NCBI GenBank assembly: GCA_000004985.1
Contig: GG738851.1
From: Naegleria gruberi
Lineage: Eukaryota
DNA length: 64,000 bases
Reading direction: 5' to 3' (one strand)
How positions within the stretch are numbered: position 1 is the stretch's first letter; the number at the start of each line of letters is the position of its first letter. The notes under the pieces are model-generated. The model was not told the DNA's origin. It saw only the letters and a program-made list of their open reading frames with translations, and ran no database searches. The translations under genes and the position numbers were made by a program. Below are positions 14,758 through 29,771 of this stretch, piece by piece.

Positions 14758-16413
14758 CTAGTCAGAAAATGTGAATAGTGTTTCAAATAATTCTTGGAGA
14801 TTTCGTTGAATGGAATGAAGAGCATCTCTTGATATGATTGGTTCCATGCAAGAAAGAGAAATAATGAGCTTGGCAGAGTGTTTCTCATTAGGAGGGAGTG
14901 TGAGAGCGCCACATGCTAAGCATCCAGCCAATGCTGATGTGTTTGCAATTGTGTACATGGAGTGAATAGTCAATGGGGTAGAAGAAAGTTGATAACTTCT
15001 TTTCACAGAATCAAGTTGACCATTATTCGTCACTATAAAGTTAACAGGTAGTCCAGCAAGGAAAACATCATTATTTTCTAATGTTTTGGCCATGGCTGTT
15101 TCTCTAGTGAGAGGAGATTGAAGAACATTTGTCAAAATAAATTGGTTTTCAAAATTGGCTGCGTGATTAGAGAGAATTTGTTTTGCATGACTGACGATGG
15201 TTTTCTTCACATCATAACAGGAATCGAATTTTAAATCCTCAATGAAAACACCCACATGTAAGGAAAGAGTGTTTCCATCCAGAACTTGAGAAAGGTGAGG
15301 AATTTTGCTTAATCCAGTTGGATAACCCACTCTAACACAACTATTTGGATGCAATGGATTTTTGTCATGCTCTCTAGCAGCTTTCAAATAGGCGAGTGAA
15401 AGTAATGGAATAAGGCATGAATTAATTGAGACGCCATGTTGTTTGGTAAAATTTCTAAAGTGCTTTAGAGTGTCCCCTTCAAATTCTAACTTCACCATGC
15501 TAACTGTCTTGTGCTCGTGTCTCCTATCGAATTGGATTAAATATTGGTTAGGTTTGTTGAATATCATCTCCTTGATAAATGGAAAGGCATATTTCAAAGA
15601 TTTCCACTTGGCTGAGAATGAGTTTAATCTTGAATCCATTATTATTTCATCAGTAGATGCAAGTAGTTTCTTAATTTCCACTTGTTCTGTTTCTCTTTCC
15701 ATACTCACATTTTCACATTCTCTCAATACTTGTCCTATAAAATTGGAAATTGAAATTCCGTCTCCTATACTATGATTATATCTCACAATCAAATACAAAT
15801 CATTTCCATTCATATAATAATACAATTCCAATTGAAAATCCTTCTCCAAATCGTAACTCTTTTGTGTGAGTACCTGTTCAATATATTCCTGCATTGGATT
15901 TTCATTCTTCTCAAACTCTTTCATTTCTCCCTCTAAATTAACAATTGGAATGAGAGGAAGATATTGATCATCCATCAATTCAAAAGAAAAAGCCAGTTTT
16001 GAACCCTTTGGATTTCTAATAATTCTACTTCTCAATAGAGGCTGTCCCTTTTGAACTCTATCAACAGCCCTTCTCAATACTCCATCAAAATTAAAAGCCT
16101 TTTCAATTTTAATATGCGCAACTCTAAACACCAAACCATTGCCATACTTTTTCAGAGAGGGAGTCAACATGATTTGTTCATTCGGAGACAAATTTCTTCT
16201 ATCCAGAATATGTCGTTCCTTATCACAATTATTGGTTTTGTAGACATGTGAATTTAAAAGTTGATTGGATTGTGTTGAATAGTTGTAATATGATGATCCT
16301 ATTGTTCTAGAAGTAATTTGGACACTGTTCTTCAGGGATGTTGCAAGCAACAAGGAAGATTTGTGTTGCACTTCTTTAATGGAGCGAACGGAATGCTTTG
16401 CCAATTTAAACAT
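14758..16413 (-). CDS. HxxxDG-motif acyltransferase of the condensation / alcohol-acetyltransferase / WS-DGAT superfamily, 551 aa, with a mitochondrial-presequence-like N-terminus.
   Basis: Single ORF. The motif NHSIGDGIS matches the catalytic HxxxDG of this superfamily. The N-terminus MFKLAKHSVRSIKEVQHKSSLLLATSLK is basic and amphipathic. Confidence 0.5.
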   Translation of the reverse strand: MFKLAKHSVRSIKEVQHKSSLLLATSLKNSVQITSRTIGSSYYNYSTQSNQLLNSHVYKTNNCDKERHILDRRNLSPNEQIMLTPSLKKYGNGLVFRVAHIKIEKAFNFDGVLRRAVDRVQKGQPLLRSRIIRNPKGSKLAFSFELMDDQYLPLIPIVNLEGEMKEFEKNENPMQEYIEQVLTQKSYDLEKDFQLELYYYMNGNDLYLIVRYNHSIGDGISISNFIGQVLRECENVSMERETEQVEIKKLLASTDEIIMDSRLNSFSAKWKSLKYAFPFIKEMIFNKPNQYLIQFDRRHEHKTVSMVKLEFEGDTLKHFRNFTKQHGVSINSCLIPLLSLAYLKAAREHDKNPLHPNSCVRVGYPTGLSKIPHLSQVLDGNTLSLHVGVFIEDLKFDSCYDVKKTIVSHAKQILSNHAANFENQFILTNVLQSPLTRETAMAKTLENNDVFLAGLPVNFIVTNNGQLDSVKRSYQLSSTPLTIHSMYTIANTSALAGCLACGALTLPPNEKHSAKLIISLSCMEPIISRDALHSIQRNLQELFETLFTFSD

Positions 16414-19892: not shown

Positions 19893-21512
19893 ATGGTCTT
19901 TAAATCAGCTCTTCATGATGAATACGATATCAAGAATCTCTCTGTTCATTCCTCCGTTAAAGTAGTGAATGGATTTTCCGTAGAGAGAAAGGCAACTTTT
20001 GTTTTCTTGTCGAATCTTGGAGTTTGTTTTAATATTGGTCTTCCGATTGATGTTATTGATCGTGATTCCAAGTTTGTTGTCAATGATAAACAAAATCATG
20101 TGATTAATTATTTGTGTTTGACTGATGTATTGAGTGAAAATATTCAAGGATTAATTTCACTTGTGGAAGACAAGGTAGAATTATTTAGCAGAGGAAAGTT
20201 GACAACCAAGTTGAAGATTTTCATTTCGGAAAAGAAGAGCGAGCTCATCACCAATATTTGTAGAGGAATTGTTGATGGAAGAGGGAATATGAGTGATGTT
20301 GTCGAAGTTATTGGAATTAGTGACTTTTTCAAGAGCTTTGAATTACCAAATTCACTCGAATTGAAAGCTTTCCCTGTCAATGATGAAAATACTGAAGTTG
20401 GTTATTCAATTGTGGAAAAGAAGAAGAAATTGAAAGCTGAATTGGCTGAGCAAGTTAAGAATTTAAAGGCAAACGAAAAGAAATTATTCATGCAAGATGA
20501 AAATAATTTTGAAATTACAGAAAGTATTGTTTTTACCTTTGTCAGACAATTGGATATCTCTTCAAAGGTTATGGAGTGTAATAAGGTCATTCTCTCTAAT
20601 TCTAATACTTTGTGTATTGGTTGTTCAGAGTTGCAACACTATTTGGGTTACAATGAAAGTGATAAGACAGTCAAGCAAAATTCAACTCTTGATATTGTCA
20701 ACTTGAACAAATATGTTCTCGACCATTTTAATGGAAAGAATCTCATTTTGACCTACTTGCCAAAGAATCTGTGTCTAGATGGTGATTGTGACATGTATTG
20801 TTTCATTATTCCACGTATTCCAAAAGATCAAAGAAAGAAACTCAAACTCTTATCTCATCGACCAAAACTTGTCGAATCTACACCTAACCCATATAGTCTT
20901 GAGGAAATTAAGGAAATTCACAACAAGAGACAATGGATTGAATACGAAACCAAGTATTTGGATAAGAGTGAATACATGTATGGACAACGTGGATTCTACA
21001 TGGGAGGTGGTTCACAAAAAGCCAAGAAAGTTGAACAGCTCAAGACTCAATATCCTCGTGGTTATATTGTTGCATATGATTTTGAAGGAAATTACATTGA
21101 TAGATCATCTGCTTTTGCTTTCTATGAGGATTCTTATTATACTTTCTTACAAGAACACCCAGAAATTTTGGATAATATTTGTGAGAATTACATTGATGTC
21201 TATGATACAGAACCAAGTAATATTCTAAGTGGATATGATTACAGCATTCAAGAACAAGGAAAGGCAACTCACTTACAAGATATTGCCCTTAGAAGAGCTA
21301 TCAAACGATTGGGAAGAGAACTCAAAGGAAAGGAGCTCGTTCAAGTTAGAGGTTATCGTACTAAATTATTCTGCCTCAATCCTGCCATGGTTGTTTTCCA
21401 TAAGAGAGCAAGTATTATTCAACCAGAAATCACTGAAGAATTCATGTTGGAAGGAAGTATTGAAAGCTTTTGGCAGAGTAATAAGGTCATTCTCACTCCA
21501 CAAGAAAAATAG
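19893..21512 (+). CDS. Hypothetical protein of 539 aa with no recognisable domain. It contains an exact 17-nt internal DNA repeat.
   Basis: Single long ORF. The 17-mer GTAATAAGGTCATTCTC occurs at 20578-20594 and at 21478-21494, both encoding NKVIL in frame. Confidence 0.45.
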   Translation: MVFKSALHDEYDIKNLSVHSSVKVVNGFSVERKATFVFLSNLGVCFNIGLPIDVIDRDSKFVVNDKQNHVINYLCLTDVLSENIQGLISLVEDKVELFSRGKLTTKLKIFISEKKSELITNICRGIVDGRGNMSDVVEVIGISDFFKSFELPNSLELKAFPVNDENTEVGYSIVEKKKKLKAELAEQVKNLKANEKKLFMQDENNFEITESIVFTFVRQLDISSKVMECNKVILSNSNTLCIGCSELQHYLGYNESDKTVKQNSTLDIVNLNKYVLDHFNGKNLILTYLPKNLCLDGDCDMYCFIIPRIPKDQRKKLKLLSHRPKLVESTPNPYSLEEIKEIHNKRQWIEYETKYLDKSEYMYGQRGFYMGGGSQKAKKVEQLKTQYPRGYIVAYDFEGNYIDRSSAFAFYEDSYYTFLQEHPEILDNICENYIDVYDTEPSNILSGYDYSIQEQGKATHLQDIALRRAIKRLGRELKGKELVQVRGYRTKLFCLNPAMVVFHKRASIIQPEITEEFMLEGSIESFWQSNKVILTPQEK

Positions 21513-21792: not shown

Positions 21793-22404
21793 ATGACTCT
21801 CGAAATCTTTTACTTTGAAGGACCTGGAAGAGCTGAAATTCTCAAACTCATTGCTCACGTAGTTAATGTCGATTACAAGTTTACCAGCATTCCACGTGAC
21901 CAATGGCCAGCCCAAAAGGAAAATGCAAGATATGGTCAACTTCCATACTTGAAAATTAATGACAAGTGGACACTTTATCAAACCATTGCAATTGCCAGAT
22001 ATCTTGCTCAACAAGGTGATTTGTATCCATCTAACATTGAAGAAGCAACCAAATCTGAAGAATACGTTGCAGCTTTGGATGAACTCTTGATAAAGTTTAT
22101 TAGAGTTTTCTTCGTTGCTTCAGAAGAAAGTAGGGAACAAGAATTAAAGACCTTCCTTGAAGGACCTGTTAAGACTATCCTTGGTGCCTTGGAAAAGATT
22201 TTGGAAGAGAATGGAGATGGTCATCTCATTAAGGGAAAGCTCACTTGGGCTGATTTTATCTTGTTGGATATTGTCTGTTTTTTCCAATTCAAGAATGTTG
22301 ATGTGAGTCACTTGACACATATTTTGAAATCCAAGGAAGTCATTAAAGCCCTTCCAAGATTCCAAGACTACGTCACCAAAGACTACAATTTTAGACAGTT
22401 TTAA
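21793..22404 (+). CDS. Sigma-class glutathione S-transferase paralog, intronless, 203 aa.
   Basis: MTLEIFYFEGPGRAEILKLIAHV…YGQLPYLKINDKWTLYQTIAIARYLA…LTWADFILLDIV… has the same family signatures as the gene at 18923. Confidence 0.8.
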   Translation: MTLEIFYFEGPGRAEILKLIAHVVNVDYKFTSIPRDQWPAQKENARYGQLPYLKINDKWTLYQTIAIARYLAQQGDLYPSNIEEATKSEEYVAALDELLIKFIRVFFVASEESREQELKTFLEGPVKTILGALEKILEENGDGHLIKGKLTWADFILLDIVCFFQFKNVDVSHLTHILKSKEVIKALPRFQDYVTKDYNFRQF

Positions 22405-22549: not shown

Positions 22550-23373
22550 ATGTCTGATCCGAATGATGACTCGGCTGATGTGAAGAGAAGAGATAAAAAA
22601 TCAGCAAAATGTCCATATTGTATGTAGTTTTGATCATCACGGATTGATAACGTTAAATTTTATAATAATTAATTTGTGGATCAATAATTGTGGATATTGT
22701 TCCGATTAATCTTTATCGGATTGTCATCATCATGCTGTTAATAGGCTATTATCATCAAAAGAAAAATTGTAAAGAAGTAACTGCTCTCAAACCCTTCATA
22801 GAACCAATATTAAATAGTGATAACATGTTTAGTGGACTTAGGAATAGAGAAGTTAAAGCAGTAATTGATACAATGAAGAATAAGAAGAATCCCTCTATTA
22901 AATATATTATTGATGCAGAATTGGAATTTTTTAAGAATGATGCCCGTAAATCAATACCAAACCTTTATTGGTCAACCATAGGAGACATGTATGACAAGAT
23001 TGTAAAAAAATTGAGGGAGCTTGCAGATAAAGAGGAAAAAGATCCATCTGCCTCTAATACAGTGGTGACCACTCCGGGACGTCAGATTTTTCTTGTCACT
23101 CAAGTAAATGGAGATGACTATGTGGCCGAATTGGATATCAATAAGGACTTTGTTAATCTGCAATCCTTTAATGCTGCAATGACTCCTTTTTTTAGTGGAA
23201 TTGATTTTAGCAAGTATGCTACTTGTTTTGACTATTGGAGATGCAGCCCTCCAATACGTATTGCATTAGTGAATGATAGTGCAGTTCACGCACTTAAAGA
23301 ATATTCAGAGCAGTGTGAGAAGGAAGGTCGATTGGAGGTAGCACTGCAATTTGTTAGCTTACCACAATTGTAA
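22550..23373 (+). CDS. Hypothetical protein with an N-terminal Cys/His cluster (KCPYCYYHQKKNC). Two exons: 22550..22619 and 22745..23373. Intron 22620-22744.
   Basis: An ATG exon (MSDPNDDSADVKRRDKKSAKCPY) is joined by a GTATGT…TTAATAG intron in phase to the 227-aa ORF. No family could be assigned. Confidence 0.4.
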
Positions 23374-23526: not shown

Positions 23527-26500
23527 ATGTTGCAGAGCTGTGCAAGAAGAGAGAAAAACTGGGTGCTGAGTTTCGCTCTAATTATCCTTTACAACATGCT
23601 GATCACACTTCTCATCCTACAAGAACCAACACATGCAACCATGTGTAGATTTGGATCACCAACATTTAATCAAAGAGATTTGTGTTCATCTGTTACAGAA
23701 GGATCATTCCGTCCTTCATGGTGCAGTGAACATAATCCTTTTGCTGCTGTGCCTCACTTGTTTAGTGACAACAAGTTTCCGAAGTGGTTAAATGTAGAGG
23801 ATGGAGCAATTTGTTCCACATCTCAGCCATACATATTCAGCTATATCAATGGAACACTGATTGATAGACCTCAAAGTGAAGATCCAAACAAATACATCTC
23901 ACCAAGAGATAAATGTAGATATATTTCAAAAATTAACACCATAGAGTTTACTGCCTCAGATGACAAGAATCCACAACGATATGTGGTATTGGGTTTAGTA
24001 TCTGGTCAGATTATTCTTATGAACTTTAACAGTGATGAGACGTACTCAGTGGGAAAGACTGATGATATGACCAATATTAGAACATTGGAAACTTTGACAA
24101 ATGGAACTGATTTATATGTGTCCAGTGTTTCTTTTGGTAATTCTGTTTCGTTATTTTATGGTACATCCAATAAGATAGACAACGTTAGATCATGTGGAAA
24201 TATTTTAGAGGTTGAACCAGACAGCGAATATGCACCTGATGTAAGGTTAATCGTGCATGAGAGAAAAATTTATGCATCAGTTGTTGTTTACAATAGTGTA
24301 GAGCAGAGCTTCTACATTCACTTTTACAGACTCTTTGGTTGTTCCTTTACAAAAGAGTTCCAATACAAGATTAAGGAGAAATGGGATTCAAATCTTGACT
24401 TTAAGGTTTCCTCTCAAGTAGGAGGATTCAAGAATAGTCTTACAACGCAAAGTTACCAAAGTGTTAGAACACTATTACAATTTTACACAACCAAGCATGT
24501 GAAAATTATTGAAATGACAACCAAGAATATTGAAATGGATTTGACTACTGTCGATGATTCTACCTTCTTTGTGGCTAATAGCACTGAAGTGATTACGGGC
24601 GCCACTATTGCTTATGAACAAATTAGAAGAGTTGATTTTAGCCAATCTTCTTGTGTTAAAGTTGTTGCAAATAAGGCTCAAGGAGCCAATTTGCTGGTTA
24701 CTCTTAATAGAAATGGTCAGACCATTTTAAGAGCAAGAAACCTGTTAGAGTTTGCAAATTATGCATTCTTTGAAAACCCTGACAGATCTTACTCTAATCC
24801 AGTAGGTAGAACTGTTCAGTGCAATATTTTGAATGGAACATTCTACGATACTAGAACTAGTAGCTGTGTACCATGTTATGAAACAGAGACAGTAATTACA
24901 GAAATTGGTTCTGGAGAGGAAATTCAAGAAATAAGGTAGGTAGTGGATTAATTTTTTCTTTCTAATGTTTTTGCAAAAAAAGAACGAGATTCCATAATGT
25001 ACCGATGGATTATGCTCAATTCTTTGATATTGACTTGGCTGAAAAGCTTGATATTAACGCACTCTGCTATGATATTATGCAAACACCTGCTCTTGCTAGC
25101 TTGTGTCAACAAAACCTCAATCAATCCAATTGTGCTCTAGAGGTCTTTTCCACTTTTGGTCAAACGTTTCTTCCAAACTTGTTGAGTGATTTTTGGGTTA
25201 ATCAAGTATTCATTTCCAAGACAGGTAAAGAAGTTCTAGTTTATGGCCTCCAACAAGAGATGTGTTCTCTTAATGGATTATATCTTGATACTTACAACAA
25301 GATTAGTTTATTGGGAGAGAGTGATTTTATGGATATTACCAGAAATGCACAACACATGTTCGTAACAATTTCAAGAGAACGTTGGGAGCTTCAATCTATT
25401 AATCGATTCTATAGCATTTGTAAGCAATTAGAAATTAATCCTGATGACCCATTCTTGAAACCATTTGCTGAACAATGTAAAGCCAATACACCAACTCCCG
25501 TCACACTCAATCAATTTGGACAATATACATCTAGCTGCTTTAGTGGAATGTCATGCCCATCACTTAAAGAGGTAGAAATAGTCAAAGTTCCTGATGGATA
25601 TTACACATCAAGACCTAACGCTGTGAAGGAATGTGAAAGTACCTATTTCTGTTACCAAGGCATCAGACAAAAATGTCCTCAAGGGTTTAAATGTCCTTAC
25701 AATAAGATGAACAAACCAATTGCTTGTAAATTTTCAAATCAAAATGGAAGGAGAAGAGATGTCAATTCTTGGGATACACCAAAGGGATCAGATACATGTT
25801 TCTCACCAGGAAACAGTGTTGCTCAACCATGCCTTAACGGAACAATTTGTGTTACTCCTTATTTCCCACCACTTCCTATTTCACCTGGGTTATATCTAGA
25901 AGGAAACAAGATTAGAAAATGTAATGTTGGTGATTATTGTAATTTGGGTCGTTTTGTTGGCTCGAACGAAAATAGTTCAGTATTACAATGCCCTGAAAAC
26001 ACTTATTGTCCTGAGCCAGCGATAATGGAACCATCTCTGTGTATTCCAAATGAAACTATGGCATTGTACTGCCCTTCTGGAACAACAACAAGAATGCCCT
26101 GCAATAGGGGATACTATTGTCCAAGACCTAGTATCCAAACACCTTGTAAATTGACTCAATATTGCGATGTTGGATCCTACGTCCCATCTCCTTGCCCAGC
26201 TGGCTATTACTGTCCATCACCTTCAGAGAAATTGATTTGTCCAAAGGGTTATTATTGTGTTGTGGGTAGTGTGTACCCAACTGGTTGTCCAACCTTCTCA
26301 ATCTGTCCAGAAGGAACCAAGGCCTATGAGGATTATGCATTGGGTGTTTTAATTGATATTTTAATTGCTGCAGCTGTTTTCTTGACTTACAAAATTTACG
26401 TATGGACCAAAGCATGTTGGAATAAATTCCAAGAAAAGAGAAGAAATAAGAAGAAGGAAGAAAGAGCTCAAAAAGTACTTAGCACTGCTCAGTTGGATCC

Positions 26501-28591
26501 TTTAGTTTCATTCTCTCAATATATCCCTAAGTTGACTGTTTCAGAAGTTATGGAAGGTTTATATAAGGAGGTTAGAGTTGAAATTGCATTCGAAAATTTG
26601 TCCCTCGATTTGAAAACCAACAATAAGAGAATTTTACATAATTTAAATGGTAAATTCAGAGCTGGTAGATTGACCTGTATTATGGGCCCTAGTGGTAGTG
26701 GTAAGACCACCTTGTTATCAGCTATTAGTGGTAAGGCACCTTATGCCAATGTGGTTGGTGATATCAAGATTAATGGTGTCAAGAGTTCCATGAAGAAATT
26801 CAAAAACGTTTGTGCATTTGTTCAACAAGAAGATTGTATGCATAGAGAGTTGACTGTTGAAGAATGTATTTATTTCTCTGCCAGAACTAGACTGAATGCA
26901 AAAGTGAGTCAAAAAACAATTGATTCCATTGTAGATGGTGTTATTCAAATTTTGGATTTGAATCACGTAAGACACTCAATTATTGGCGATGAAACAAAGA
27001 GAGGTATTTCAGGTGGTCAAAGAAAGAGAGTCAGTATTGCTATGGAATTGGTTGCTTGTCCATATGTTTTATTCCGTAAGTTTCAATTTTATATATAATG
27101 TTAACACTTCTCATAGTTGATGAACCTACTAGCTCCTTGGATGCCTACAGTAGTTTTGAAGTATCGAAAGCAATGAAGGATATTGCCTCTAGTGGTATAA
27201 CAGTAGTGGCAGTGTTGCATCAACCTAGATTTGAGATATTTGAAATGTTTGATGATGTTGTCTTGCTTGGTAATGGAGGTAGAATTGTTTACATGGGACC
27301 TTCTAAGGATGCTCTGAACTATTTCTCTGAGAAACTTCAATTGGAACCTCCTCCATTTGTTAATCCAAGTGATTTCTTCCTGGATGCTATTTACGATCCA
27401 AGTTTCACTTATCAAAATCAATCTAAGAGAACTGGAAAATATGTTAAATCTATGACCTGCCAAGAAATGTTTGATTTGTGGGAAGAAAATTCCAAGCAGA
27501 TTCAGGCCACTCCAATTGAAGCCAATATTTCATATGAATCTCTTAGAAAAGAGGAGAAATCCAGAGGACAAAATCCACTCATTCATTTGTATATGTGTAT
27601 TAGAAGATCATTCATATTGAGAATCAGAGACATTATGGGATTCTTTGTTGATTGTCTGTTAGTTTATATTGCAGGATTGGCACTTGGTATGATTTTCTTA
27701 AAGGATGCCTATGTTGGACCACTTCCTGAAGATATTATAGATACATGTCCTGCTGCTATTAGAAAGATTTGTGAATATCCATTGAATAATCCAATTATCA
27801 ATGTTGCCAGTACAATCCCTCTTGCCTTGGGATTGTGTGCAGGTATGTCTTCACTTGGAACATTTGGTACAAGACAAGAACAAGTAATTTTCAAGAAGGA
27901 ACAAGCTGCTGGATTATCTGTCATGTCCTATTTCTTGTCGAAAATGTTAGAACAAATTCCAAATATTGTTCTGGGTCCAGTTGTGTTCCTTTCCATTTTC
28001 TTCTCACTCTATTCACCACGAGCTACTTTCTGGGAATATTATTTGGTACTTTTGATGATGCACTTTACAACATTTGGATTAGGAACATTGATAAGTGTTT
28101 GTGTCAAGTTGGATTTGATTCAATTGGCCACAGCTGTCTTGATTCTCGTTTCACAACTTGTTGGAGGTAGTAAGCCAACTATTCCACAAATGAAAGAAAT
28201 TATTCCGCCACTCTTTTGGATCAGTTGCGTCTCCTATGTCAGATATGCACAAGAAGCATTATATTTAATGGAAATCAAGTACTATAAGGATATATTCGAT
28301 ATCAGGTCCTCTTTGGAAGTATTTGATTATGATTTGAGTAATATTGATTTCTGTATTGGAATGATCCCAGTTTTTGGTGTTGCCTTTAGAATTTTAACCT
28401 TGATAGCTCTTTATCAGAAGAGTGATGATTCATTGTGGAGCACTCTTTGGATGTATTTTACTTATTATTCAAATGTTGATAATTTGAAACTAACTGCTAA
28501 ATCATTCTTGAAGAAGTTTAAGAGAACTAAGAAAAAGAATGAAAACGAAGAATTATTACTCAGCACCAACGGTGATACAATAGTGCAATAA
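23527..28591 (+). CDS. ABCG-type (White-like) half transporter of 1657 aa with a large N-terminal extracellular domain. Layout: signal peptide, about 900-aa ectodomain with GCC2/GCC3-like Cys repeats, a TM helix, the NBD, then a 6-TM domain. Exons: 23527..24935, 24983..27075, 27117..28591. Introns 24936-24982 and 27076-27116.
   Basis: NBD motifs are present: Walker A GPSGSGKTT, Q-loop, ABC signature ISGGQRKRVSIAME, Walker B VLF|LDEPTSSLD (split by the 41-nt intron GTAAGT…CTCATAG), and an HQP H-loop, followed by six hydrophobic helices. The N-terminal region carries repeated CPxGYYCP / YCP…C units and a TM helix (ALGVLIDILIAAAVFLTYKIYVW) just before the NBD. The first junction uses donor AG|GTAGGT and acceptor AAAAAAAG|A. 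The total length is divisible by 3. Confidence 0.7.
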
Positions 28592-28829: not shown

Positions 28830-29771
28830 TTAACGCAATTCAATCAAGCCAGACCTATGCTTATCAGACATGTCGTGATTGTAATCTCTGTGCATACATT
28901 CATCGGCACGTACTACTACCACTACGTCTCTCATAGTTGATTCTGGTTTAAGATTCCAATACTTGATTGCAATCTCTGGAGCTTTACAATTTGGAATATC
29001 ACCCTTATCAATAGCTTCTAAGAATTCAGAATAGGCAGCAACAGCTTCTTCCTCCAAATAACCAACAAGACGATGGCAAAATCTTGGATTCAACAAGTAA
29101 GCCATCGTATAGAAGGAAGTAAAACCAACTTGAGCACCAACAACCAACATTCTTTCCAAAAAGGTTGGCTTTGTCATTTCCATCCATGTCAACAAGTGCA
29201 TTCTTTCATTTTCAGCTTCTTCCATCAGTTCTCCAATATGTCCATGATCTCTTCTCATTAATCTCAATGAGTTGAAATGTCTCCAACCTCCTGCAACTAT
29301 ACCCGGAACAGCAGCAACTGTTTCTAATACAACAGCATGGTGAAGATAACGATTTCCAAAGAATCCATGAACGAAAACTCTTAAAAACTTCATAATACCT
29401 AGAGCCAACTTATCAGTCAAGTCAACTGGTGAATAGGAACGTAAAACTTGATACTTTTCCAATTCTTGAGTGTTGGTGTGTGCATTGTCTCCATATGGAC
29501 GGAATTTAGCTTGTGCCAATGGAGTATGATTAGTTTCATAGTGTTTATAGACCATATCCTTAGTAAACATTGGTTTGTTGGATTCTTCTTGAATGGTAGA
29601 CTTCTTGATGGATTGTTGTTGAGTTTCAAATTGACCAAAAGCTGCAGCAGTAGAGTAGGATCTAGTCATATTGAAACAGTTCATTTGATTCTTGACATTC
29701 AAGCTTTTCAAAATGTTGAGAGAAGTTGAACTGCCACGAGCAACACAATTTCTATTCATCATCATTTTCAA
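28830..29771 (-). CDS. AOX: Alternative oxidase (mitochondrial, di-iron), 313 aa.
   Basis: Diagnostic motifs LETVAAVPG, NERMHLLTW, LEEEA and RADECMHRD are present, with a presequence-like N-terminus. Confidence 0.9.
   Translation of the reverse strand: MKMMMNRNCVARGSSTSLNILKSLNVKNQMNCFNMTRSYSTAAAFGQFETQQQSIKKSTIQEESNKPMFTKDMVYKHYETNHTPLAQAKFRPYGDNAHTNTQELEKYQVLRSYSPVDLTDKLALGIMKFLRVFVHGFFGNRYLHHAVVLETVAAVPGIVAGGWRHFNSLRLMRRDHGHIGELMEEAENERMHLLTWMEMTKPTFLERMLVVGAQVGFTSFYTMAYLLNPRFCHRLVGYLEEEAVAAYSEFLEAIDKGDIPNCKAPEIAIKYWNLKPESTMRDVVVVVRADECMHRDYNHDMSDKHRSGLIELR

What the first reader, a model, noticed from the sequence alone, without database searches (positions are those of the whole stretch)
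23527..28591. ABCG half-transporter carrying a roughly 900-aa N-terminal extracellular domain with GCC2/GCC3-like cysteine repeats
Three ORFs join through two short introns, in frame with a total length divisible by 3, into one 1657-aa protein. Its layout is signal peptide, large ectodomain with about six CPxGYYCP-type repeats, a TM helix, a complete ABCG NBD with the HQP H-loop, then a 6-TM domain. ABCG proteins normally start with the cytosolic NBD. An extracellular receptor-like domain and a TM helix ahead of the NBD is an unusual topology. It suggests ligand-gated or adhesion-coupled transport.
Basis: partly seen in the sequence, partly recalled or inferred. Interest (0 to 1): 0.6.

Follow-up and report, generated by a model that had tools for sequence, protein, structure and literature searches.

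The report
Naegleria ABCG transporter with large ectodomain
This is a real three-exon Naegleria gene for an ABCG-type half-transporter that carries a large outward-facing domain and an extra membrane helix ahead of its ATPase; the layout looks odd next to textbook ABCG proteins but is normal for a widespread, barely studied ABCG subfamily.

Summary
Exons 23527-24935, 24983-27075 and 27117-28591 (+) join through 47-nt and 41-nt GT..AG introns into a 1658-aa protein. It is 70% identical end to end, with no gap at either junction, to a 1666-aa Naegleria gruberi protein. Intron 2 splits Walker B, and N. lovaniensis reads straight through the intron-1 site.

The layout is: signal-like N-terminus; roughly 885-aa ectodomain (beta-propeller, helices, disulfide-rich stalk); TM0 helix; intact NBD; ABC2-type TMD.

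Pfam finds no GCC2_GCC3, EGF or TNFR domain. The stalk resembles ephrin-receptor/Elapor1-type and mastigoneme cysteine rods only at fold level.

The topology is not exceptional. The ABC part belongs to the PF19055 subclass that sources name ABCG24/ABCG28/WBC30-like. 74 retrieved proteins had a hydrophobic helix 78-223 residues before Walker A, most with the same cysteine motif just before it. Dozens of 1400-2000-aa protist proteins share the large ectodomain, including N. fowleri, Willaertia and a Rigifila transcript.

The most likely function is a dimeric ATP-driven exporter whose ectodomain is an extracytosolic binding or hand-off platform. This is inferred, and ligand gating is untested.

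Verdict: new member of a known but under-described kind, of moderate interest.

The parts
23527..24935 (+). Exon 1 (residues 1 to 2/3 of codon 470): signal-like N-terminus and most of the beta-propeller
   Evidence: ORF and splice donor read directly. 60.6% identity to N. gruberi P0001 over 23656-24933.
23527..23637 (+). Signal peptide or signal anchor (residues 1-37; hydrophobic core 13-31; possible cleavage after T-H-A37)
   Evidence: Hydropathy 2.58 over 13-31. The -3/-1 rule was applied by eye, with no SignalP run. N. gruberi has a classical MNMRILLFLLLLALLSPSISS start.
23914..24894 (+). Beta-propeller, about six four-stranded blades (residues ~130-456)
24936..24982 (+). Intron 1, 47 nt, GTAGGT...AAG
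   Evidence: Sequence read. Gap-free alignment of the spliced product to N. gruberi. Continuous ORF at this site in N. lovaniensis.
24983..27075 (+). Exon 2: rest of the ectodomain, TM0, linker, and NBD up to the first half of Walker B
   Evidence: 72% identity to P0001.
25200..25370 (+). Five-stranded beta-sheet (residues 543-599), candidate seventh propeller blade (inferred)
25536..26306 (+). Cysteine-rich stalk (residues 655-911): 26 Cys, including 11 C-x5-C pairs; CPxGYYC-type motifs
   Evidence: Motif count. AF2 pLDDT about 90, a rod of short beta-hairpins. Foldseek E 2e-7 to Chlamydomonas mastigoneme filament protein; weaker matches to Elapor1 and Eph receptors. 16 invariant columns in the 30-sequence alignment, 10 of them Cys.
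26334..26408 (+). TM0: single transmembrane helix (residues 921-945) followed by a K/R-rich cytosolic stretch
   Evidence: Hydropathy and sequence. The same helix sits 78-223 residues before Walker A in 74 retrieved proteins.
26634..27133 (+). Nucleotide-binding domain (Pfam ABC_tran, residues 1021-1173), spanning intron 2. Walker A 26685-26708, signature 27006-27029, Walker B 27066-27130, H-loop 27212-27226.
   Evidence: Pfam ABC_tran E 1.1e-25. Motif coordinates.
27076..27116 (+). Intron 2, 41 nt, GTAAGT...TAG, inside Walker B
   Evidence: Sequence read. Splicing restores VLFLDEPTSSLD, identical to N. gruberi.
27117..28591 (+). Exon 3: end of the NBD, ABCG-type transmembrane domain (residues ~1325-1600), C-terminal tail and stop
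   Evidence: Pfam ABC2_membrane_7 at 135 bits (cut-off 22.7) and ABC2_membrane at 53.8 bits. TM segments. 77% identity to P0001.

Best explanation
The locus is one three-exon gene of a Naegleria species. It encodes a 1658-aa half-size ABC transporter of the ABCG family, in the subclass that carries Pfam PF19055 and that sources name ABCG24/ABCG28/WBC30-like.

Shown here:
- The polypeptide starts with a signal-like hydrophobic segment.
- About 885 residues follow on the extracytosolic side: a WD40-like beta-propeller, a helical region, and a roughly 250-residue disulfide-rich rod.
- It crosses the membrane once (TM0).
- It then has a roughly 75-residue basic linker, a catalytically complete NBD, and a six-helix ABC2-type TMD.

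Inferred:
- Like other half-size ABCG proteins, it must pair, as a homodimer or with a related half, to form an ATP-driven exporter or floppase.
- The two ectodomains, held on rigid stalks next to the outer mouth of the translocation path, act as a binding or hand-off platform. The partner would be the exported, probably lipid-like or hydrophobic, substrate or an extracellular or luminal component.
- They are probably not a gate. The compartment, cell surface or vesicle lumen, is unknown.
For: Gene model. 70% identity over 1632 aa to N. gruberi P0001 with no gap at either junction. N. lovaniensis has a continuous ORF across the intron-1 site.

Family: Pfam ABC2_membrane_7, ABC_tran and ABC2_membrane. 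The best solved relatives by sequence are Pdr5/Cdr1, ABCG2, AtABCG25, ABCG1, ABCG16 and ABCG5/8. The closest database relatives all carry PF19055, and sources name them ABCG24, ABCG28-like or WBC30.

Catalytic motifs are intact.

Shared architecture:
- 74 retrieved proteins have a hydrophobic helix 78-223 residues before Walker A, and in most of them the motif CxxGSxxPxxC...CPxG[ST] lies 8-12 residues before it.
- The stalk matches that juxtamembrane region in cnidarian, Andalucia and chytrid members.
- Full-length relatives with large ectodomains exist in N. fowleri (1726 aa, aligned 39-1625), Willaertia, Acrasis and a Rigifila transcript, and in many metagenomic proteins of 1400-2000 aa.

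Topology: the K/R-rich segment after TM0 fits the positive-inside rule.

Ectodomain folds.
Against: - No transcript data for this organism were available.
- No substrate, localisation or partner is known for any large-ectodomain member.
- Signal-peptide cleavage and topology rest on hydropathy and the positive-inside rule, not on a dedicated predictor.
- The two AF2 models were made separately, so the relative arrangement of propeller, stalk and TMD is unknown.
- The hand-off role of the ectodomain is argued by analogy only.
- The link to plant ABCG24/28 rests on source names, PF19055 and protein lengths. No plant sequence was aligned here.
Confidence: 0.6

Rival explanations
1. Receptor-coupled or mechanotransmitting ABC. 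The propeller binds an external ligand or surface. Then either binding is relayed through the stalk and TM0 to control the ATPase (ligand-gated transport), or ATP hydrolysis drives movement of the ectodomain to do work outside the membrane. This is the first reader's idea, and is functionally analogous to bacterial MacB/LolCDE/FtsEX.
Confidence: 0.15
2. The ectodomain is structural or sorting only. It would be a glycosylated spacer, dimerisation module or trafficking signal, for example for delivery to a particular vesicle or surface domain, with no part in substrate handling.
For: The stalk's nearest structural relative is a filament-forming surface glycoprotein, the Chlamydomonas mastigoneme protein. 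The same cysteine repeat makes up giant protist surface-type proteins of up to about 6400 aa. The ectodomain has 8 N-glycosylation sequons. The ectodomain diverges faster than the ABC core: 60.6% identity for exon 1, 72% for exon 2 and 77% for exon 3 against N. gruberi. Ectodomain length varies from about 100 to about 1200 residues across the family.
Against: The mid-domain plus stalk is conserved with the ABC core over very wide distances (Heterolobosea, CRuMs, metagenomic lineages). In almost every long homologue examined it is attached to an ABCG core; of the six that lacked NBD motifs and were scanned with Pfam, five had one and one (P0185) had no Pfam hit at all. Both points argue for a function tied to transport.
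Confidence: 0.2
3. Two genes. The 23527-24939 ORF is a separate secreted protein, and the ABC transporter starts downstream.
For: ORF 1 ends at a stop 4 nt after the proposed donor. In N. lovaniensis the annotation has two adjacent genes (891 aa and 612 aa), and prokaryote-style gene callers list ORF 1 on its own (P0123).
Against: The N. lovaniensis split lies about 380 residues downstream of our intron 1, inside the cysteine stalk. It reflects a deletion plus frameshift, not the exon-1 boundary. That species reads through the intron-1 site in one frame. N. gruberi, N. fowleri and Willaertia models and several metagenomic proteins align continuously across residue 470. A protein starting in exon 2 would have no signal sequence ahead of the ectodomain half it would still carry.
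Confidence: 0.03

Closest known systems
Naegleria gruberi predicted protein, 1666 aa (P0001; NCBI/UniRef 'predicted protein')
   Same: Orthologue. 70% identity over 1632 aa with the same domain order, identical Walker B region, and the same cysteine stalk and TM0.
   Different: Different species. Exon 1 is the most diverged part (60.6% identity). Uncharacterised and unnamed.
PF19055-type half-size ABCG proteins named ABCG24 / ABCG28 / WBC30-like (Arabidopsis names; cnidarian, sponge, chytrid, Andalucia and Acrasis members seen here)
   Same: NBD-TMD core with PF19055. A signal-like N-terminus, a juxtamembrane cysteine motif and one TM helix ahead of the NBD. Plant orthologues are about 1040-1112 aa, against 600-790 aa for ordinary half-size ABCG.
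   Different: Most have ectodomains of only 100-450 residues and lack the propeller and helical mid-domain. The only functional study I know of is Arabidopsis ABCG28 in pollen-tube secretory vesicles (Do et al. 2019, cited; the paper was not readable here).
Large-ectodomain ABCG proteins of other protists: N. fowleri CAG4708565.1 (1726 aa), Willaertia magna KAL9658626.1 (1546 aa), Acrasis kona 'ABCG24' (1068 aa, N-terminally short), Rigifila ramosa transcript (1575 aa)
   Same: Same mid-domain, stalk, TM0 and ABCG layout, at 32-43% identity over most of the length.
   Different: Paralogous or distant lineages. The outermost N-terminal domains differ. Some metagenomic relatives have degenerate NBDs without Walker A or signature motifs.
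Canonical half-size ABCG (human ABCG2, ABCG1, ABCG5/G8; Arabidopsis ABCG25, ABCG16)
   Same: NBD and TMD fold class. These are the best solved-structure matches by sequence (E 1e-41 to 1e-50). They must dimerise to function.
   Different: They begin with the cytosolic NBD and have no signal sequence, ectodomain or TM0.
Chlamydomonas mastigoneme filament protein (PDB 9b4h, 8wa2, 8tx1); Elapor1 and Eph-receptor cysteine-rich regions
   Different: 14-18% identity. No Pfam PF07699 match in this protein. Unrelated overall architectures.

Membership tests
ABCG (reverse-order, half-size ABC transporter) | NBD precedes the TMD in one polypeptide; single NBD and single TMD | tested here: met
   ABC_tran 1021-1173, then ABC2_membrane 1325-1550.
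ABCG (reverse-order, half-size ABC transporter) | Complete ATPase motifs: Walker A, Q-loop, signature, Walker B with catalytic Glu, H-loop | tested here: met
   GPSGSGKT, FVQQED, ISGGQRKR, VLFLDEPT and VLHQP located.
ABCG (reverse-order, half-size ABC transporter) | ABC2-type TMD; closest solved relatives are ABCG/PDR proteins | tested here: met
   PF01061 at 53.8 bits. PDB sequence search: Pdr5, Cdr1, ABCG2, ABCG25, ABCG1, ABCG16 and ABCG5/8 rank ahead of ABCB proteins.
ABCG (reverse-order, half-size ABC transporter) | Cytosolic N-terminus starting with the NBD (textbook description) | tested here: not met
   About 1000 residues precede the NBD, including a signal-like segment and a TM helix. 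This feature describes only the canonical subgroup.
PF19055 subclass (ABCG24 / ABCG28 / WBC30-like) | Pfam ABC2_membrane_7 above the gathering score | tested here: met
   135.2 bits against a cut-off of 22.7. All close relatives carry it.
PF19055 subclass (ABCG24 / ABCG28 / WBC30-like) | Extracytosolic N-terminal extension ending in a cysteine motif, then one TM helix ahead of the NBD | tested here: met
   Helix found in 74 retrieved proteins including this one, 78-223 residues before Walker A; in most the cysteine motif precedes it. Stalk-to-juxtamembrane matches at E 1e-9 to 1e-6. Sequences inspected.
PF19055 subclass (ABCG24 / ABCG28 / WBC30-like) | Phylogenetic grouping with Arabidopsis ABCG24, ABCG28 and WBC30 | not tested
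   No plant member was retrieved for alignment. The link rests on source names and plant protein lengths.
GCC2_GCC3 / Ephrin_rec_like (Pfam PF07699) | HMM match above the gathering score | tested here: not met
   No Pfam family at E<=10 for residues 37-651 or 652-921.
GCC2_GCC3 / Ephrin_rec_like (Pfam PF07699) | Fold-level similarity to the ephrin-receptor/Elapor1 cysteine-rich module | tested here: inconclusive
WD40-type beta-propeller | Propeller fold of four-stranded blades | tested here: met
Type VII ABC (MacB / LolCDE / FtsEX mechanotransmission) | Four-helix TMD with the large extracytoplasmic domain inserted between TM1 and TM2 | tested here: not met
   The ectodomain is N-terminal to a lone TM0, and the TMD is ABC2-type with six helices.
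ABCA-type large extracellular domains | Extracellular domain inserted between the first two helices of each TMD, with forward TMD-NBD order | tested here: not met
   The domain order here is ectodomain-TM0-NBD-TMD.

The most novel reading that the evidence does not exclude
The conserved propeller, stalk and TM0 would form a functional extracytosolic machine coupled to the ABCG ATPase. It would be a eukaryotic counterpart of bacterial mechanotransmitting or receptor-coupled ABC systems. Either an external ligand controls transport, or ATP hydrolysis drives extraction or hand-off of a substrate to an acceptor held about 10 nm above the membrane. That would define a mechanistically distinct, ancient ABCG class that current ABC surveys overlook.
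Probability: 0.15. Interest if true: 0.75.

Novelty: new member of a known kind. Interest (0 to 1): 0.35.

Why it matters
ABC reviews, including a 2026 survey of non-canonical regions, still describe half-size ABCG proteins as having a cytoplasmic N-terminus. Sequence databases nevertheless hold a large, ancient eukaryotic subclass with an outward-facing domain and an extra helix before the ATPase.

This gene is a clean, intron-verified example from a free-living amoeba genus that includes a human pathogen, and N. fowleri has a 1726-aa relative. The predicted ectodomain, a propeller on a mastigoneme-like cysteine rod, gives a concrete object for asking what these extensions do. To my knowledge only Arabidopsis ABCG28 has been studied functionally.

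The value lies in describing and framing this class. It is not the discovery of a new kind of system.

Tried and rejected
The exact species was therefore not identified. Only an ENA metagenome contig carrying an identical ORF 3 was found.
- Pfam on the ectodomain alone, in two pieces at E<=10, returned nothing.
- The word-indexed search with the ectodomain found only two Naegleria proteins and wrongly suggested a Naegleria-specific domain. The exhaustive HMMER search found 1189 relatives.
- I first inferred that N. fowleri lacks the gene. Cluster look-up showed a 1726-aa relative, so the idea was dropped.
- A conserved Asp in TM0 (IDIL/IDLL) looked interesting. It is limited to some heteroloboseans and cnidarians, so it is not a family feature.
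- The afdb50 fold library was unavailable, so no fold comparison with plant ABCG24/28 models was possible.
- Do et al. 2019 (PMC6589667) is not held. Literature searches for a description of the TM0/ectodomain ABCG class found none.
- No paralogue or further copy lies in the window; tblastn with P0001 hits only the three exons.
- Neighbouring genes are unrelated.
Full report
**Source and context.** The window is AT-rich (33-37% GC) and densely packed with long ORFs interrupted by very short introns. The best match of the finding's product is a Naegleria gruberi protein, so the window comes from a Naegleria species other than N. gruberi, N. lovaniensis or N. fowleri. An ENA metagenome contig (ERZ929261) carries a 100% identical copy of the third ORF. 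Neighbouring genes are unrelated housekeeping-type genes: a GST at 21793-22404, an alternative oxidase at 28830-29771 on the minus strand, an APH-like kinase, a TPR protein and TANGO2. There is no second copy in the window.

**Checking the observation.** Three same-strand ORFs occupy 23527-24939, 25005-27098 and 27098-28591. Reading the junctions gives intron 1 at 24936-24982 (47 nt, GTAGGT...AG) and intron 2 at 27076-27116 (41 nt, GTAAGT...AG).

Intron 2 lies inside Walker B, and splicing restores VLF|LDEPTSSLD, identical to N. gruberi. The spliced protein aligns to the 1666-aa N. gruberi protein at 70% identity over 1632 residues with no gap at either junction (EEIQEIRTRFHNVP against EEIQELSSRFHDAP). 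In N. lovaniensis, residues 14-805 align in one continuous reading frame, so that species has no intron at the intron-1 site and reads straight through it. Several metagenomic proteins and the N. fowleri and Willaertia models also align continuously across residue 470. The remaining gap is that no transcript data for this organism were available.

**Anatomy.** Hydropathy shows a hydrophobic segment at 13-31 behind a basic n-region, with a plausible T-H-A cleavage site at residue 37. This is my reading of the -3/-1 rule; no predictor was run. There is a lone helix at 921-945 followed by KFQEKRRNKKKEERAQK, and a C-terminal cluster of membrane helices. Pfam finds ABC_tran at 1021-1173, ABC2_membrane_7 (PF19055, 135 bits against a cut-off of 22.7) and ABC2_membrane. 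Walker A, Q-loop, signature, Walker B with its glutamate, and the H-loop are all intact, so the NBD looks catalytically competent. By the positive-inside rule, residues 38-920 are extracytosolic and the NBD is cytosolic.

**The ectodomain.** Pfam is silent on it even at E<=10, so the suggested GCC2_GCC3, EGF and TNFR assignments are not supported at family level.

A second model, of residues 520-925 on 30 homologues (pLDDT 87.2), starts with helices. It then has a five-stranded sheet at 543-599, which on its own matches single WD40 blades. More helices follow, and then a long rod of short disulfide-braced hairpins. I infer, but could not test, that 543-599 is the seventh blade. If so, the propeller itself spans the intron-1 junction.

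The rod (655-911) holds 26 cysteines, including 11 C-x5-C pairs. In the 30-sequence alignment, 10 of the 16 invariant columns are cysteines. Foldseek places it closest to the Chlamydomonas mastigoneme filament protein (E 2e-7 to 7e-6). Elapor1 and Eph-receptor ectodomains appear only weakly. Giant repeat proteins that share the motif reach only sub-threshold PF07699 scores. 'GCC2/GCC3-like' is thus a fair loose description of the fold but not a family assignment.

**Is the topology unusual?** Against textbook ABCG proteins, yes. A 2015 evolutionary survey and a 2026 analysis of non-canonical ABC regions both treat half-size ABCG as NBD-first, and the latter states explicitly that the N-terminus is cytoplasmic. 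My literature searches found no description of an ectodomain-bearing class.

Against the sequence databases, no. The closest relatives of the ABC part all carry PF19055, are 800-1290 aa long, and are named ABCG24, ABCG28-like or WBC30 by their sources. They come from cnidarians, a sponge, chytrids, Andalucia, Planoprotostelium and Acrasis.

Inspection of 22 of them was followed by a scan of every retrieved protein with a Walker A more than 150 residues in. The scan found 74 with a hydrophobic helix 78-223 residues before Walker A. In most, though not all, the motif CxxGSxxPxxC...CPxG[ST] lies 8-12 residues before that helix. Our stalk matches that juxtamembrane region in short-ectodomain members at E 1e-9 to 1e-6, scaled to a million-sequence database. 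Maize orthologues of ABCG24/28 are 1040-1112 aa, against 600-790 aa for other half-size ABCGs.

**The large-ectodomain form is also common.** An exhaustive HMMER search with residues 37-921 found 1189 relatives (94 at E<=1e-30). Many are 1400-2000-aa proteins in which the mid-domain and stalk are followed by TM0 and an ABCG core. Named examples are N. fowleri CAG4708565.1 (1726 aa, aligned 39-1625 at 32%), Willaertia magna KAL9658626.1, and a Rigifila ramosa transcript of 1575 aa. The last is mRNA-level evidence for the fusion in a distant lineage.

Six long homologues that lacked NBD motifs were scanned with Pfam. Five had an ABC2-type TMD; in four of these ABC_tran did not match at all and in one only weakly. 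The sixth (P0185) had no Pfam hit. So in almost every long homologue examined the ectodomain module sits on an ABCG core.

**How it most likely works.**
- Shown: the domain order, the intact ATPase motifs, the ABC2-type TMD, the predicted folds of the ectodomain parts, and the co-inheritance of stalk, TM0 and ABCG core across wide distances.
- From established knowledge of half-size ABCG proteins (ABCG2, ABCG1, ABCG5/8): the protein must dimerise, and it exports or flops mostly lipid-like or hydrophobic substrates.
- Inferred: two stalked propellers stand beside the outer mouth of the pathway and serve as a binding or hand-off platform for the substrate or for an external or luminal partner.

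I put about 0.6 on this combined reading. That is close to certainty for identity and architecture, and much less for the role of the ectodomain.

The rivals are as follows.
- True coupling between ectodomain and ATPase, either ligand gating or mechanotransmission: 0.15. It is weakened by the single-helix, loosely conserved linker connection, and by a TMD that is not MacB-like.
- A purely structural, sorting or dimerisation role: 0.2. The mastigoneme-like rod, the glycosylation sequons and the faster divergence of the ectodomain fit this.
- Two separate genes: 0.03.

**Comparison and verdict.** The gene is the orthologue of an unnamed N. gruberi predicted protein. It is a member of the PF19055 ABCG subclass, with all tested defining features met. 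Grouping with the Arabidopsis proteins by phylogeny was not tested. It is not a member of PF07699, not a MacB-type transporter, and not ABCA-like in how its extracellular domain is attached.

It is a new member of a known but poorly described kind. Interest is moderate at 0.35. A specialist would not be very surprised by one more member, but the class is under-recognised, essentially uncharacterised, and now has a concrete fold description.

**What did not work.** See the tried-and-rejected field. In brief: the afdb50 library and the key ABCG28 paper were unavailable; the exact source species was not identified; and two of my own interim ideas were dropped after checking (absence from N. fowleri, and a conserved TM0 aspartate).

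Noticed in passing
L001 10560-10960 (N. lovaniensis PYSW02000022.1, about 533,200-533,600): The N. lovaniensis orthologue is annotated as two adjacent genes (891 aa ectodomain; 612 aa ABC part, 58 nt apart). The ectodomain frame stops inside the cysteine stalk (…GFYCPRPTENE*). The NBD continues in the +1 frame from …LRTNNKRIL. The equivalents of residues ~853-996 (last repeats, TM0, linker) are missing from the 18.8-kb locus. This is either a recent disabling deletion plus frameshift or an assembly error.
   Followed up: partly
P0144, P0202, P0209, P0186 (metagenomic/JGI relatives, 1396-1785 aa): These large-ectodomain relatives keep PF19055 and ABC2_membrane but have no Walker A or signature motif and no ABC_tran Pfam hit. 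A fifth, P0196, keeps only a weak ABC_tran match. They may be degenerate halves that pair with a competent partner, as in ABCG5/G8.
   Followed up: partly
P0125, P0126, P0214, P0215 and others: Giant proteins of 4700-6400 aa contain 30-45 copies of the same CPxGxYC repeat as residues ~830-917. One is from Blastocystis sp. (KAK8815864.1). The stalk repeat is therefore a widespread protist building block. Pfam gives no above-threshold family for the five shorter repeat-rich relatives that were tested.
   Followed up: partly
P0276/P0275 versus P0277 (N. fowleri): The N. fowleri relative is annotated inconsistently. One assembly has a 1549-aa protein plus a separate 159-aa neighbour (KAF0982141.1 and KAF0982142.1). 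Another has a single 1726-aa product (CAG4708565.1). At 32% identity to the window's protein it is probably a paralogue rather than the orthologue.
   Followed up: partly
window 14758-16413 (-): A 551-aa ORF gives a Pfam Condensation-domain hit (NRPS-type; 32.9 bits against a cut-off of 30.6). That is an unexpected family for an amoeba and a possible horizontal acquisition.
   Followed up: no
window 28830-29771 (-) and 21793-22404 (+): An alternative oxidase gene (Pfam AOX, E 6e-80) lies convergent to the ABCG gene, only 239 nt beyond its stop. A GST lies about 1.1 kb upstream. No functional link is suggested.
   Followed up: partly
window 22690-23373 (+) and 19893-21512 (+): Two long ORFs (227 aa with a GTG start; 539 aa) just upstream of the gene have no Pfam match.
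   Followed up: no
L002 (ENA ERZ929261, run ERR1078381, project PRJEB11402): A 2.9-kb metagenome contig carries a 100% identical copy of exon 3's product and the start of the AOX gene. The same or a nearly identical Naegleria strain therefore occurs in that environmental sample.
   Followed up: no
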